The translations under genes were made by a program, and so were the position numbers. Below are positions 49,801-61,098 of a stretch of DNA of 64,000 nt, one piece after another. The notes beneath the pieces are model-generated. The model did no database searches and was not told the DNA's origin. It saw only the letters and a program-made list of their open reading frames with translations. Numbering within the stretch: the first letter of the stretch is position 1; the number at the start of each line of letters is the position of its first letter. Source of the stretch: Eledone cirrhosa (taxonomy: Eukaryota); NCBI GenBank assembly GCA_964016885.1, contig OZ024755.1, positions 4,526,001-4,590,000 of the forward strand. The letters run 5' to 3'.

Positions 49801-52800
49801 TAGTAGTAGTAGTAGTACTACTACTACTACTATTAATGAATAATACATGAAGTAAAGAAGGTAGACTGTAGGCAGCTATGAAACAGTTTTATTGTCCAAG
49901 AGAGAACCAGAAAAGGTTCCATTGAGGTTGCCATGGTACCAACTCAGTAGGGAGTTACTCTATTACTCTATTGTATGTTCCAGCTGACAGGCCATGCTGG
50001 AGCACCATAAGATAGTAGAGAGTTACTCTATTGTGTTCTAGTCAACAGGCCATGCTGGAGCACCATAAGACAATAGAGAGTTACTCTATTGTATGTTCCA
50101 GCTGACAGGCCATGCTGGAGCACCATAAGATAGTAGAGAGTTACTCTATTGTGTTCTAGTCAACAGGCCATGCTGGAGCACCATAAGACAATAGAGAGTT
50201 ACTCTATTGTATGTTCCAGTGGACAGGCCATGCTGGAGCACCATAAGATAGTAGAGAGTTACTCTATTGTGTTCTAGTCAACAGGCCATGCTGGAGCACC
50301 ATAAGACAATAGAGAGTTACTCTATTGTATGTTCCAGTGGACAGGCTATGCTGGGACACCATTTGTTAATAAATTAATATAGTCCAGCCAAATATTTGAA
50401 TATTTCACAAATAACCTTGTAGCAAGAAGTATAGATCAGGAGTGGCAGGGATGTTGACACACTGCTCTAATTAGTTCTTATTACAAGACTTAGATAACAG
50501 CACTAAATGGTTGACGTGTGTGTATATATATATATGGAAAGGCTAACTTAAAAACGATGATTATATACATGTGTGTGTGTGTGTGTGTGTGTGTGTGTGT
50601 GTGTGTGTGTGTGTGTGTGTGTGTGTGTGTGTGTGTGTGTGTGTGTGTGTGTGTGTGTGTGGATGACCCTGTGATAAACAAGTGAAACTCTAGAATAACC
50701 AGACTCACTATTTAGCCTTAATATATATATGTATATATATATTTCTAAAATATTCTTACACATATATATATATATATATATATATATATATAGGAGAAAG
50801 TGTGACCCCGACGGCAGAGCTCAAGCCGTTTCGACGGCTATTTCTGTCCAGAAATAGCTGTCGAAACGGCTTGAGCTCTGCCGTCGGGGTCACACTTTCT
50901 CCTATTATCCACTCTACTACCCTAAGTATTGAGTACTCTGATACGTTATGGTCCATCTGGTTCCTTACCACAACTCCTTAGTTATATATATATATATATA
51001 TATATATGTATCTTTATATACAGATATGTTTTAACTCATTCTTTTGCTTGTTCCAACTCTGTTTAATCCTTGCACTAAATATTGACTTTCTCTAATATTT
51101 AACCCTGATAACTCAAGCCTCGAGTACAATACGCAGCAGCTTTTGGCATGTAGTATTCTGTATCGCACCTCTTTGTATCGCACCTTTCTACCCTCTCTTA
51201 TGATACTATAACCCTATTATATATATATATATATATATATATTCGATATGTGTATTTCCACATTTTCCCGAATATTTTTTGCGGATATAGAGGTTATCTC
51301 CCTTGCTGAATTCCATGTGCGTTTTTTCAGCCTGGGTTATGCCTTTTCATTCGTTCGGACAAAAGCTCGTTGAGGAAGTAAATTCCGGTCCGCTGGCTCC
51401 TAGAAGTCTTATATATTTTTATGTGAGCTGATAGAGGGCAGTTTAAGGATTTACAGAAACCCAAGAAGCTAGATTTACCATCTTTCTAGCGGGTCCGGGT
51501 ATGCTTTTTACATTCATTTGATTTATTGATTTATTGATATTTTATCTGAGTGTCCCGAATCTTCCAGATCGCAATTTTTCGGTCGTATGGTTGATTATAG
51601 ACTTGTTCTATGTGTGACGGTATTTTAACGATAGTTATAGCTCTGATTTATCTGAATTATTGAGCCCTCTGCCGCTCATTTCGAATTTTGTTTATCGTGA
51701 ACTCGTGTGCCGATTTTTCGATACTCGATTATTCTACTATATATATATATATATATTTAAAAGTTAAACAAGGTTCAATGAATACATCAAAGAATGAGTT
51801 TTACAATAGATTGGAAGCACTCAAGAGAAAAAGGGTTCCCAGAGTTATTAATATTAATTCAAAATATTAACAAAATAGATATTCTTGTGATCAAGTATAT
51901 TTTATTATACATATTTCAGAGGTACTGAGTTAAGTTCAACAGTACGTCCTCATCAGATAAAATAAGATGATGCATGACATACCCTGACATAGTAGATGGT
52001 TAAGATTCAGTCATGGTAGTGATTAACATATGATTAACATATGACAAAACTCAATATTTATACCCTAATATTGAGAACAATATATATATATATATATATA
52101 TATATATATATATCGCAAAAAAAAAAGAGAATCAGTGTTGCGATGAGTGAAATTTATTGGACATATTACAATCGTTTCTCTGGCAACCAGCTCGAGGCAC
52201 GATCGATGTGATGATCGAACCTGACTCTGAAATCGCAAGGTCCTCAGATACATCTTGATTCTATGAAGCAGATTTTCCAAAATCTTTTTTTTGTGATATC
52301 ATACTCTGCTCTGTGAGAGCATCGAGTGCTCAAACGGCCTACCGCATACAGACGCTTTAAGCATCCAACACCAATTATATATATATATTTATATATATAT
52401 CATCATCATCATCATCATCACCGTTTTACGTCCGTTCTTCCACGCTAGCATGGGTTAGACGGGTTGTCCTGTTGTGGGCAGTGTCTGGTCGGCTGACCAT
52501 GCCTTGCTCATACAGGAACTGATCTGGCTTGATTTCTACAGCTGGATGCCCTTCCTAACACCAACCTCATTTACAGTGAGTGCTGGGTGCTTTTTCGTGG
52601 CGCCTACACGTCCACTTTACAGTGGGCTGGGTGCTTTTTTGCCGTGGCACCTCCACGACCACCTTGCGGTGGGGGGGGGGGGGGGGGGCATATTGTTTAT
52701 ATGCTTCAGCATGTACCCATGGGAGGTCGGGTACCCTGTATTACTGCGTGACGCCAGAAGTCACGGTCGTGTGTCATTGACTTTGAGAGGTGTAGTTGGG

Positions 52801-55800
52801 TAAGGTCGGCTTTTATCACCTCATCCCAAGTCATCTTGGGTCTCCCCACTCCGCGGTTTCCATCAACTTCTAGTGCTCTGCACCTTTTTATGCAGCTGTC
52901 ATCCTTCATACGCATCACATGTCCATACCATATATATAAACATCAGAATGTAATGGACAGAAAATATGATGACTAGCTGATTGTTTAGACAACTGACCTG
53001 ACCATAAACAAAGGAATTCATATAGGACATGTTTACTGATCTTTTTCTTTTTTTTCGTGAATTTGACAATGCCATACATAGGTGCAAGGTTAGTACTCTG
53101 ATCTAGATAGTCATTGTACAAACCTATGTGTCTGTTTGGCTGTCATTGACGTTTGCTTTCCTTTCACAGACATGATAACAATAAACTTGATTACCTGTAA
53201 CATATGTATTTGATACAAAGTCAGAGTCAAGACATAGTTACTTCAAGTGATATTGTGTGACTTAATAGGTATTAAATCCCGAGAGATGTTTCTTTCTTGT
53301 CTATTGTAAAGTATTCACTTTTCATAAGGTATTTTATTATTTTAAAATGTTAAGGTTTTCTGAAGAATAATAGACCAGCCATGTAAGATAAGAGAACATT
53401 TGTGAATTTAAGGGCTCGAATCATTCAGAAATCATACCAAGCCCTAACTTAAAAAACAAACAATATAGAATTCAATATAGAAATGGTGTGATCCAACTAA
53501 TTGGCTTCCATTGACTGTAACTGAATGTTTTTTTCTTGTGGCCCTACCAGTTGTGCTTGGCAGTATATTACAGACAGTGTCTAGCTGTCAACACATGCAT
53601 GGGATGGCGAGGAATATCATATCAGGAATGTGGCTAGAGACTACACCAGACATGTGACCATGTCCAGTTCATACATTCGGTATCAGCATGGCTGCAAGCT
53701 CTTCCAAACGCCATCAGAAGATTTTATCATGATACATGGAGGCACATGGCTTAGTGGTTAGCTTGCAATCGAAATGTTGTGAGTTCAATTCTCAGACCAG
53801 GTGATGTGTTGCTTCCTTGAGCAAGACTCTTTATTTCACATTGCTCCAGTTTACTCGGCTGTAGAAATGAGATGATAGGACTGGGGTCCCTATCATTCCA
53901 CTGCAAAGTGGTTGTGGAGGTGCCACAGTAAAAAAAAGCACCCAGCACTCACTGTAAATGAGGTTGGTGTTAGGAAGGGCATCGAGCTGTAGAAATCAAG
54001 CCAGAACCAGTTCCCGCCCCACCCTTGCAAGCAGGGAAAAGCAGACGTAAAATGATGATAATGATGATGATGGTGGTGGTGGTGGTGGTGGTGGTGATGA
54101 TGATGATGATGATGATGATGATGAAGGTGGGGACCTGCCCTGCTTTCCATGTTGGCATGGGTTAGATATAGATGGTGGAGGAGAGTCTGGTGGAGTTGAA
54201 TTAGACCAAGAGGAGCTGTCTTTTCATGCTGGAAAGAGTTGAATGAGCAAAATGATGATAGAGGGGGGTCAGGAAAGGGCTAACATAAGGAGGCCTACAA
54301 GAAGGATTGGTGCAAACTGGCAGCCGGAGGTGATAGGTGCTTATCGTTGTCCTACTTCTCTGCTTCTTCACTACCATTCCATGTTGACATGGGTTGGATG
54401 TGGAAAGGATAGAGTGCATCCAATTTTTTATGATATGGTATGGGTTGGGTTGGCCTAGTAAGGAGAGCAGGGATGTTTTTCTATACTGGAAAGAGTTGAA
54501 TGAGCAAGGTGGGGACAGAAGGTGTAAACTGGTAAGTTGGGGATAGGGGGTCGATCTAAGTGATGTCTGACTTCTGTATGTGAGAAGGTAGGTCCTCTGT
54601 AGTATGGCAAGCTGCCAGCTGTCTCGATCCTACATTACGTCGTGTCCTTCGTAAGGTTTAATTGCATAAGGTCAGCTTTTACCACATCAACCCAAGCTTT
54701 CCTAAATCTTCCTCTTTCATAGTTTCCATTAACTTTGAGCACCCTGCACCTCTTTAGACAGATATATCATGACCATGCCATCTAACACTTTTTATGTCCA
54801 GTTTCTGTCTCAGTCCACACACAGAGAGAGAGAGAGAGAGAGAGAGAGTCTCAGGTGCTGAGACTGGGAAATATGCTGTATGCATTTCTTATATAAACAT
54901 GTACATACATACATTCATATTTACACACACATACATATATATATATATAGTGGTAGAACACTGGAAGGTAATATCCGTAGTGGTAGAGCACTCAGTCCAT
55001 GGGACGAGTTAGGTAGAAGTGGTTACACAACAGTTAGTTCACCATCCCGAGAACATTTGTTTCACCTTAGCGGATCCTCAGATCGCAAGGGTCCATTACG
55101 ATCTGAGGATCCGCTAAGGTGAAACAATTGTTCTCGGTATGGTGAACTAACTGTTGTGTAACCACTTATATATATATATATATATATATATAAGTACATT
55201 ATGTACTATTGACTCCTGCGTTTGTTTGTTTCTCCTTTTGAACTATATATATATATATATATATATATATATATATATATATATATATATATATATATAT
55301 ATATATAACTATATATATATAACTATATATATATAACAGGTCGATACGCAATAAATATTTTTCATATGTAAAACGAAACTTCCTAGTTCTGTCTCTCTCT
55401 ATATATATATATATCCCGTTAAGGGTGAAAGCAGCGATTCTTTGCTTAAACTTTAATCTGTTATTTTAATAAATATTTGCTCTACGGTTCTTATATATTT
55501 GATATATATTTATCCTTATCGGTCCCTCTTTAGATTTTAGTCTTCACAATTATTTTTACTATATATATATATATATAACGAAGGAAATGTGGTAAGGAAC
55601 CAGGTGGACCATAACACACCAAAGTACTCAATACTTAGGGTAGTAGAGTGGGTAATAGGAACGAATAGGACCCCGACGGCTGAGCTCAAGCCGTTTGGAC
55701 GGCTAATTCTGGTTCAGAATCTAGTCCAGAATTAACCGTCGAAACGGCTTGAGCTCAGCCGTCGGGGTCCTACTCGTTCCTATATATATATATATATATA

Positions 55801-60514: not shown

Positions 60515-61033
60515 ATTTCTATATTTTTAAATATATATATATATATATATAAATGGTGTCCCAAAAATGTATACACAATTACTTACAGGGTGGCTTAATT
60601 CCCTGATATATTCAAGTATGTATATATATATATATATATAGTAATACAGGCAATATTTATTAGACTGCTGTTGAAATGTGTATACATATTACAGGAACAC
60701 CCTGTATACACACACACACACACACACACACACACACACACACATATATATATATATATATATATATATATATATATATATATATATATATATATATATG
60801 TGTGTGTGTGTGTAAAAGTTCTATTTAAATTGTTGGGATACAACAAGCAAATATTTTTATAACTGATATAAAGCACTCAACAAATATTTGGAGTAAAAAT
60901 ACGATATTAACAAATGGAAACTATATTTATAAAACCATATTTATTTCATTATACATATTTGGGAGCTGCCAACAGTAATGGTTGCATTTTTTAAGGGTAT
61001 ATCAATATTTATTTATAAAACTGATCTATATTA

Positions 61034-61098
61034 TATTTTGTCTGATGAAAGCACACCATAATTTAACTTGGTGTCCTTGAAATATGTATAATGAAATA
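61034..61098 (+). ncRNA. Type-I hammerhead ribozyme motif, sister of 51898-51964
   Basis: UAUUUUGU-CUGAUGA-AAGCACACCA..UGGUGUCCUU-GAAA-UAUGUA-UA^AUGAAAUA. Confidence 0.8.

What the first reader, a model, noticed from the sequence alone, without database searches (positions are those of the whole stretch)
51898..61098. Two sister hammerheads (51898-51964 minus, 61034-61098 plus) show strong stem covariation
Both have an 8-bp stem I (UAUUUUAU/AUAAAAUA vs UAUUUUGU/AUGAAAUA), CUGAUGA, a 10-position stem II with a C-C mismatch at the same 4th position, a loop ending UUAACU, and the same GAAAUAUGUAUA^. Six of the stem II pairs differ on both sides yet still pair (e.g. A-U vs G-C, G-C vs A-U, C-G vs U-A). 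This is the best evidence in the window that the RNA structure was under selection. The conserved C-C mismatch and loop end may mark a tertiary contact.
Basis: seen in the sequence. Interest (0 to 1): 0.85.

Follow-up and report, generated by a model that had tools for sequence, protein, structure and literature searches.

The report
Hammerhead ribozymes in Penelope-like retrotransposon remnants
The two self-cleaving RNA motifs are leftover ends of two related jumping-gene families that have tens of thousands of copies in this animal genome, a known arrangement, although comparing the families shows one unpaired cytosine and a small hairpin marking the insertion ends that are kept throughout and seem undescribed.

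Summary
Observation confirmed: both motifs are there, and six of ten stem II positions differ on both sides yet pair. They are not a functional pair. Each is the type I hammerhead in the terminal repeat of a 5'-truncated Penelope-like retroelement of the Hydra clade, inserted in (TA)n. Identical hammerheads lie in the terminal repeats of elements with reverse transcriptase/GIY-YIG ORFs elsewhere in the genome; families A and B are 60% identical in protein. Three exact patterns give about 84,000 such motifs in 3.0 Gb, so two per window is expected. Covariation holds over 22 lineages (148/154 cells paired; slid controls 44-82). It reflects selection on the replicating elements, not at these loci. 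Stem III is a covarying palindrome, pointing to cleavage as a dimer. The UUAACU loop end is not conserved. Beyond the finding: copies end at two preferred sites, each 3-9 nt before a bulged RCUC/GAGY hairpin also visible in published Hydra elements, a candidate reverse-transcriptase start signal. Cleavage and expression are untested.

The parts
51747..52079 (-). 5'-truncated terminal-repeat (pLTR) remnant of Hydra-clade Penelope-like family A, carrying the long tail, flanked by (TA)n
   Evidence: 93% identical over 335 nt to the pLTR of ORF-bearing element L195; 40 scored genome copies at 92-100%; TA runs at both ends
51898..51964 (-). Hammerhead A: stem I 51957-51964/51898-51905, core 51950-51956, stem II 51918-51949 with C.C at 51946/51921, GAAA 51914-51917, palindromic stem III 51907-51914, predicted cut between 51906 and 51905
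   Evidence: core-to-cut sequence identical to the downstream hammerhead of element L046/L195
51819..51845 (-). First tail hairpin ACUC...GAGU with a 2-nt 3' bulge, just after the short insertion terminus
60811..60960 (-). Inverted, more truncated copy of the family B pLTR; starts at the 3' half of the hammerhead and carries the long tail
   Evidence: 99% identical over 150 nt to the L193 pLTR
60875..60894 (-). First tail hairpin ACUC...GAGU of family B, in the inverted copy
60961..61138 (+). Direct 5'-truncated pLTR remnant of family B ending at the short terminus in (TA)n
   Evidence: 95.5% identical over 178 nt to the L192 pLTR
61034..61098 (+). Hammerhead B: stem I 61034-61041/61091-61098, core 61042-61048, stem II 61049-61078 with C.C at 61052/61075, GAAA 61079-61082, palindromic stem III 61082-61089, predicted cut between 61090 and 61091
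   Evidence: core-to-cut sequence identical to the hammerhead upstream of the ORF in L193

Best explanation
Both motifs are type I hammerheads from the terminal repeats (pLTRs) of two related Hydra-clade Penelope-like retroelement families, left as independent 5'-truncated insertions in (TA)n. SHOWN: full elements have a pLTR on each side of one RT + C-terminal GIY-YIG ORF, each pLTR with the hammerhead. Stem II covaries across lineages. Stem III is a self-complementary 8-mer. Copies end at two preferred sites, each just before a bulged RCUC/GAGY hairpin. INFERRED: a transcript holding both pLTRs folds into a double hammerhead through the stem III palindrome, probably helped by the element's protein, and cuts after AUA in each repeat. 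That releases a unit-length RNA, possibly circularised (about 0.7 for dimer cleavage in vivo). The RT/endonuclease binds the bulged hairpins, nicks (TA)n and starts cDNA 3-9 nt upstream of either hairpin, which gives the short and the tailed ends (about 0.6). Early termination leaves solo pLTRs like the two here, which lack a partner in cis and should cleave poorly. The invariant unpaired C at stem II position 4 is most likely a docking or protein-contact nucleotide (about 0.5).
For: Element structure: hammerheads 2,857 nt apart around the ORF in L046/L195; two pLTRs in L186, L187, L189, L192; open frames of 742-747 aa in family B relatives. Protein motifs RWR, DKT, YRDD, CxCX5C, CxxC/CxH as described for Hydra, collinear by eye with Hydra-1_Obim. 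A 34%-identical full-length homologue carries a C-terminal GIY-YIG match (E 3.7e-4) and a precomputed RVT_1 hit. (TA)n follows 30 of 30, 24 of 30 and 25 of 30 sampled copies. Covariation. Palindrome: 21 of 22 lineage representatives, with six different palindromic 8-mers; 29 of 30 copies in each of two searches that left part or all of it free. Predicted energy of the active fold: monomer -5.0, dimer -21.6 kcal/mol, against -20.2/-19.4 for two inactive monomers. Ends: family A 21 of 41 at 50-59 nt and 13 of 41 at 161 nt after the cut; family B 28 of 60 at 46-51 and 20 of 60 at 140-149; hairpins at 60/~158 and 55/147. Literature: PMC4209133 (dimer model), PMC8557442 (Hydra clade), PMC11167929 (two RT start sites define the tail; protein-assisted hammerhead).
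Against: No cleavage or expression data. The active dimer is not the predicted lowest-energy fold (cofold MFE -24.3 and -24.1 versus -21.6). In the one reconstituted PLE system, hammerhead mutants inserted normally and no RNA-seq reads began or ended at the cut site (PMC11167929). The G10.1-C11.1 pair, highly conserved in metazoan PLE hammerheads (PMC4209133), is G.U in A, A-U in B and U.U in family F. Pfam and PDB searches of the element's own ORF found nothing significant. No tree with published Hydra proteins was built. The hairpins have weak folding z-scores (-0.9, -0.3), and their role rests on position and conservation only.
Confidence: 0.85

Rival explanations
1. Same origin, but the fold is kept mainly as a binding and positioning platform for the element's RT/endonuclease. 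Cleavage is slow, late or dispensable, and the uncut read-through RNA is the template.
For: PMC11167929: hammerhead catalytic mutants do not affect insertion in vitro, and cleavage needs protein. Genomic copies span the cut site intact and end 50-160 nt downstream of it. Non-canonical 10.1-11.1 pairs and an invariant unpaired C suit a protein site.
Against: The catalytic core is kept with variation at the free position 7, and the stem III palindrome covaries, which is what a cleaving dimer needs. A circularised unit RNA would also give intact copies.
Confidence: 0.25
2. The two window motifs are host-exapted ribozymes acting at this locus, for example a divergent pair regulating a neighbouring gene.
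For: Both are intact and lie 9 kb apart on opposite strands. Their stems I and III are mutually compatible by sequence.
Against: Each equals the commonest sequence of its family and sits in a typical truncated or inverted remnant. About 1.8 such motifs are expected per 64 kb. No PLE ORF lies between them.
Confidence: 0.03
3. They are non-autonomous non-LTR retrozymes (short tandem repeats making hammerhead circular RNAs).
For: Type I hammerheads with a short palindromic stem III also mark animal retrozymes (PMC7229834 abstract; 10.64898/2026.07.22.740005 part 1).
Against: No tandem array covers either motif. Identical hammerheads flank autonomous ORFs. Copies are solo or inverted with variable 5' ends.
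Confidence: 0.03
4. The covariation is an artefact of comparing two hand-picked sequences, and the C.C is merely inherited.
For: Two sequences give no statistics. The lineages are related, and the shuffle control ignores relatedness.
Against: Pairing persists over 22 lineages in 7 groups, with G.U intermediates. Slid controls give 44-82 of 154 against 148. Neutral ORF sites are saturated between A and B, and C is only 74 of 518 letters at such sites, yet position 4 stays C.
Confidence: 0.03

Closest known systems
Hydra-clade Penelope-like elements, e.g. Hydra-1_Obim of Octopus bimaculoides (Craig et al. 2021, PMC8557442)
   Same: Single ORF with RW[KR], DKT, CxCX5C linker and C-terminal GIY-YIG; (TA)n targets; type I hammerhead near the 3' end with a tiny palindromic stem III; pLTR, inverted-copy and tail anatomy.
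   Different: These families are not among the published consensi (two diagnostic hammerhead strings gave 0 hits in the supplement). The published Hydra hammerheads use GAAAC and paired stems II; these use GAAAU...AUA and a long stem II with an unpaired C. Family B units are 3.5-4.2 kb, against generally under 3 kb.
Metazoan PLE minimal and dimeric type I hammerheads (Cervera and De la Pena 2014, PMC4209133; Lunse et al. 2017, known here only through PMC6765202)
   Same: Long helix II, palindromic helix III region, predicted dimer, many families full of compensatory changes, mostly solo copies and close inverted pairs.
   Different: [quoted passage not shown] About 84,000 matches, against 9,000 in Xenopus tropicalis in that paper (different search methods).
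Poseidon element of Anolis carolinensis (Frangieh et al. 2024, PMC11167929)
   Same: Two preferred insertion ends downstream of the hammerhead delimit an optional tail, and are linked to a stem-loop.
   Different: There RT starts inside an AC-rich stem-loop within the ORF, with a 30-40 nt tail. Here the ends lie 3-9 nt before two repeated bulged RCUC/GAGY hairpins upstream of the ATG, about 95-105 nt apart.

Membership tests
Type I hammerhead ribozyme | Core CUGANGA, GAAA and an NUH triplet at a three-way junction, open at stem I | tested here: met
   AUA is a natural triplet (PMC1636495, start of abstract)
Type I hammerhead ribozyme | Stems I and II supported by compensatory change | tested here: met
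Type I hammerhead ribozyme | Self-cleavage after NUH | not testable with these tools
   needs an in vitro assay
Rfam hammerhead families | Score above a family's gathering threshold | tested here: not met
   no hammerhead hit at gathering score or at E<=10; not filed under an Rfam family
Canonical metazoan type I hammerhead (Schistosoma type) | 6-bp stem I and 4-bp stem II joined by conserved loop nucleotides; G10.1-C11.1 | tested here: not met
   loop II varies from 4 to more than 12 nt and its end is not conserved; position 1 is AU, GU, GC or UU
Dimer-forming PLE hammerhead | Short self-complementary stem III region | tested here: met
   21 of 22 lineage representatives; 29 of 30 copies in two searches
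Dimer-forming PLE hammerhead | Located in pLTRs flanking a PLE ORF | tested here: met
   L046/L195, L186, L187, L189, L192
Hydra-clade PLE | RWK-type N-terminal motif and DKG changed to DKT | tested here: met
   RWR and SDKT in the full ORFs; RWR can also be read in published Hydra-1_Crog (by eye)
Hydra-clade PLE | CxCX5C linker, C-terminal GIY-YIG, CxxC and CxH motifs | tested here: met
   seen in L184-L186; the homologue's GIY-YIG match aligns to the C-terminus
Hydra-clade PLE | Insertion into (TA)n | tested here: met
Hydra-clade PLE | Phylogenetic placement with published Hydra RTs | not tested
   compared by eye only
Naiad PLE | N-terminal endonuclease, DKA motif, no canonical hammerhead | tested here: not met
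   endonuclease is C-terminal, motif is DKT, hammerhead present
Non-LTR retrozyme | Non-coding tandem repeats with a hammerhead in each unit | tested here: not met
   no tandem array at either motif; linked to ORFs

The most novel reading that the evidence does not exclude
The pLTR of Hydra-clade elements holds a two-part RNA code for the element's own protein. One part is a dimeric hammerhead switched on by a contact at the invariant unpaired C10.4. The other is a repeated bulged hairpin (RCUC-stem-2-nt bulge-GAGY-RCU), seen here in six family groups and by eye in published coral, sea cucumber and copepod elements, that sets each reverse-transcription start a few bases upstream. It would be a template-positioning element for a telomerase-related RT. 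Because stems I and III are compatible between families A and B, some of the roughly 84,000 solo copies might also cleave in trans or in host transcripts when the protein is present.
Probability: 0.35. Interest if true: 0.62.

Novelty: new member of a known kind. Interest (0 to 1): 0.33.

Why it matters
As reported, the finding is an expected feature of Penelope-like elements. Its value is as a natural mutational series. Tens of thousands of copies in at least seven lineage groups show what may vary (loop II, pair identities, position 7) and what may not (core, palindrome, unpaired C10.4). The role of PLE hammerheads, and how PLE reverse transcription picks its internal start, are open questions (PMC8557442, PMC11167929). 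Open frames of 742-747 aa, an invariant nucleotide and two mapped hairpins make both directly testable in a PLE clade other than the one reconstituted in PMC11167929.

Tried and rejected
Rfam: no hammerhead family matched. Pfam and PDB: nothing significant for the element ORFs. Naiad identity: my first guess, rejected on domain order and DKT. Conserved loop end: rejected. Hammerhead inside a 5' UTR intron: a donor-like GGTAYGT lies within 70 nt upstream in 25 of 30 copies of the first sample, but in 0 of 30 (families E and F) and 12 of 30 in the other two; an acceptor-like YAG is kept before the ATG in family A but is not evident in B; unresolved and not claimed. Expression: no RNA holder listed. 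The three runs laid on the family A pLTR and ORF start were contigs of unknown library type; pLTR depth was a few hundred times ORF depth and no GT-AG joint was among the 15 of 17 joints shown; this is no evidence on expression or splicing. The metagenome scan found no related locus. Earlier scan findings: none returned. No PLE ORF in the window. Host gene exons got no significant Pfam or PDB match. Lunse et al. 2017 is not held, so I cannot exclude that it already shows the C10.4 variant. Bulged subfamilies B4 and B6 were left out of the fixed-register count, and family F was lost to the stem I filter and added back.
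Full report
OBSERVATION. Both motifs are in the sequence as described. Stem II pairs, A versus B, are GU/AU, GC/AU, AU/GC, C.C/C.C, GC/AU, UA/CG, AU/AU, CG/CG, UA/CG and GC/AU: six double changes, all transitions. A scan of both strands finds one more hammerhead-like motif in the window, at 3463-3523. Rfam reports no hammerhead, and folding energies are not exceptional (z -1.3 and -1.1), so the case rests on the core sequence and on comparison.

THEY ARE REPEATS. The window lies in a 3.0-Gb genome. The exact pattern shared by A and B has 23,373 matches, against 1 for the reversed control. 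Two further patterns, exclusive of the first, add 27,784 (other stem III letters; control 4) and 33,056 (other base at core position 7; control 642). That is about 84,000 in all, some nested or chance, or 1.8 per 64 kb. Two in a window is ordinary. Remnant A spans 51747-52079 between (TA)n runs. Remnant B is a direct piece (60961-61138) preceded by an inverted, more truncated piece (60811-60960). This is the anatomy described for Penelope-like elements (PMC8557442 section 6). No element ORF lies in the window.

THE PARENT ELEMENTS. In L046/L195 the A hammerhead occurs twice, 2,857 nt apart, around a long ORF; the downstream copy equals the window's from core to cut site. The B hammerhead, identical to the window's, ends 186 nt before the ATG in L193. 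L186, L187, L189 and L192 have B-type hammerheads on both sides of the ORF, and L184-L186 hold open frames of 742-747 aa. The proteins show RWR, DKT, YRDD, CxCX5C and C-terminal CxxC/CxH motifs, the marks of the Hydra clade (PMC8557442 section 11), and run collinear by eye with Hydra-1_Obim. A full-length homologue (34%) has a C-terminal GIY-YIG match (E 3.7e-4, below the curated cut-off) and a precomputed RVT_1 hit. The three hits with a species name are from Argonauta hians, so a cephalopod host is a fair inference. A and B ORFs are 60% identical and 57 of 79 fourfold sites differ. Family E lies downstream of a related ORF end in six loci; family F in one.

COVARIATION. On a MAFFT alignment of 14 natural copies, 12 of 20 pairs change on both sides, 92.5% of cells pair (the C.C counted as a pair), no shuffle of 500 reaches the covariation score, and slid structures give 31-53%. 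That control ignores relatedness. I then picked one natural copy for each of 22 lineages in seven groups, leaving out two bulged B subfamilies. Stem II positions 1-3 and 5-8 pair in 148 of 154 cells, against 44-82 when slid, and G.U intermediates link AU and GC states. In the first 30 hits of each of three searches, positions 2, 3, 5, 6 and 7 pair in 27-30 of 30. The window copies equal their family's commonest sequence and show nothing locus-specific.

THE MISMATCH AND THE LOOP. Position 4 is unpaired in 22 of 22 lineages, always with C on the 5' side: 17 C.C, 4 C.U, 1 C.A. Families E and F came mostly from a search that fixed that C, but the complementary search finds only 883 non-C matches against 27,784, and the listed rows are scattered mutants or chance. 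For the A/B stem III there are 1,540 non-C matches, partly false registers, and 2,877 with another partner, dominated by one subfamily with C.A and a 4-nt loop. In the search that left the position free, 28 of the first 30 have the 5' C and 1 of 30 pairs. Closing it to C-G would gain about 6 kcal/mol, yet no amplified lineage seen here has done so. So the conserved item is an unpaired C10.4, not a C-C pair. The UUAACU end occurs in 5, 0 and 0 of 30 copies and is not conserved. The published Hydra hammerheads have paired stems II, so the feature is special to this subclade. My searches found no description of it, but Lunse et al. 2017 could not be read.

DIMER. The 8-mer around stem III is self-complementary in 21 of 22 lineages, in six forms, and in 29 of 30 copies in the two searches that did not fix it. 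The two central bases would be a loop in a monomer and have no reason to be complementary. The active monomer is predicted at -5.0 kcal/mol and is essentially unpopulated; the double hammerhead is -21.6, close to two inactive monomers (-20.2, -19.4) but above the best cofold (-24.3, -24.1). This fits the dimer model for PLE hammerheads (PMC4209133; PMC6765202) and a need for protein help (PMC11167929).

INSERTION ENDS. Among copies found by pattern alone, 3' ends cluster at two places: family A 21 of 41 at 50-59 nt and 13 of 41 at 161 nt after the cut; family B 28 of 60 at 46-51 and 20 of 60 at 140-149. Each cluster lies about 3-9 nt before a helix RCUC...GAGY followed by RCU, at 60 and about 158 in A and at 55 and 147 in B. 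The first helix is ACUC/GAGU and the second mostly GCUC/GAGC. It closes inserts of 4 to about 50 nt, mostly with an inner stem and a 2-nt 3' bulge, in groups A-F. By eye the same motif is in the published Hydra-2_Amil, Hydra-1_Ajap (twice before the ATG), Hydra-2_Ajap and, with a GCCC/GGGC change, Hydra-1_Crog. In Poseidon two RT start sites define the tail (PMC11167929). I infer that these hairpins position the RT; this is untested.

MECHANISM AND RIVALS. Most likely, an RNA holding both pLTRs cleaves as a protein-assisted double hammerhead, giving a unit-length and perhaps circular RNA. The RT/endonuclease starts beside a hairpin at a nicked (TA)n, and early stops leave solo repeats such as these two. 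Identity of the elements 0.9 or more; dimer cleavage in vivo about 0.7; hairpins as start signals about 0.6; C10.4 as a contact about 0.5. The main rival keeps the same origin but makes cleavage dispensable (0.25), as in the Poseidon in vitro data. Host exaptation, a retrozyme or an artefact are each about 0.03.

PAPERS SEEN. PMC4209133: parts 1-2 of 4 of the text. PMC8557442: passages, sections 6 and 11, supplement parts 1, 2, 52, 53 and search hits (figures not visible). PMC11167929: passages and the second part of the main text. PMC6765202: passages. 10.64898/2026.07.22.740005: part 1 of 5 (its supplements are closed). PMC7229834 and PMC1636495: start of abstract in a listing. Lunse et al. 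2017: nothing. Hammerhead position numbering is from my own knowledge.

VERDICT. Real, and well supported as selected structure, but a new member of a known kind: PLE terminal-repeat hammerheads, in a clade already known from octopus. The unpaired C10.4 and the twin hairpins are the parts worth a follow-up. Interest 0.33.

Noticed in passing
window 3463-3523 (minus): A third type I hammerhead-like motif of another family: 7-bp stem I, GAAAC-type core, odd palindromic stem III like the published Hydra hammerheads, lying between TA-rich runs.
   Followed up: partly
window 51819-51845 and 60875-60894 (minus); L193, L195 and many loci: A bulged RCUC/GAGY hairpin occurs twice per element, each time just after a preferred insertion end; also visible in published Hydra consensi.
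   Followed up: yes
window about 51990 (minus) and about 60997 (plus); L046-L075: A splice-donor-like GGTAYGT lies 30-45 nt before the core in families A and B, and an acceptor-like YAG about 20 nt before the ATG in family A. This would put the hammerhead in a 5' UTR intron, but families E and F lack the donor.
   Followed up: partly
L046 and relatives, between hammerhead and ATG: A 12-nt inverted repeat pairs the tail with the stretch holding the acceptor-like site before the ATG in family A.
   Followed up: no
window, both motifs: Stems I and III of A and B are fully cross-compatible, so hetero-dimers between families are possible on paper; families D and F have different stems I.
   Followed up: no
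window about 7500-46700 (minus): Scattered coding exons of one large host gene, the largest at 45101-46678. It resembles the autophagy gene EPG5 from memory; Pfam and PDB searches gave no significant match. The first exon was not located, so remnant A may be intronic and in the sense orientation.
   Followed up: partly
window 29290-29353, 42731-42788, about 53746-53800: tRNA-derived SINE heads: two Rfam tRNA hits and a similar third seen by eye.
   Followed up: no
window 50793-50905, 55020-55170, 55650-55780, 60420-60530: Long near-perfect inverted repeats between (TA)n runs, probably inverted ends of other (TA)n-targeting elements. The one near 60470 contains a hammerhead-like core, and a degenerate core lies near 60150.
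   Followed up: no
genome, family F (e.g. L158): An abundant family has U.U at the 10.1-11.1 position, as in many published Hydra hammerheads, and a 4-bp stem I followed by a bulge.
   Followed up: partly
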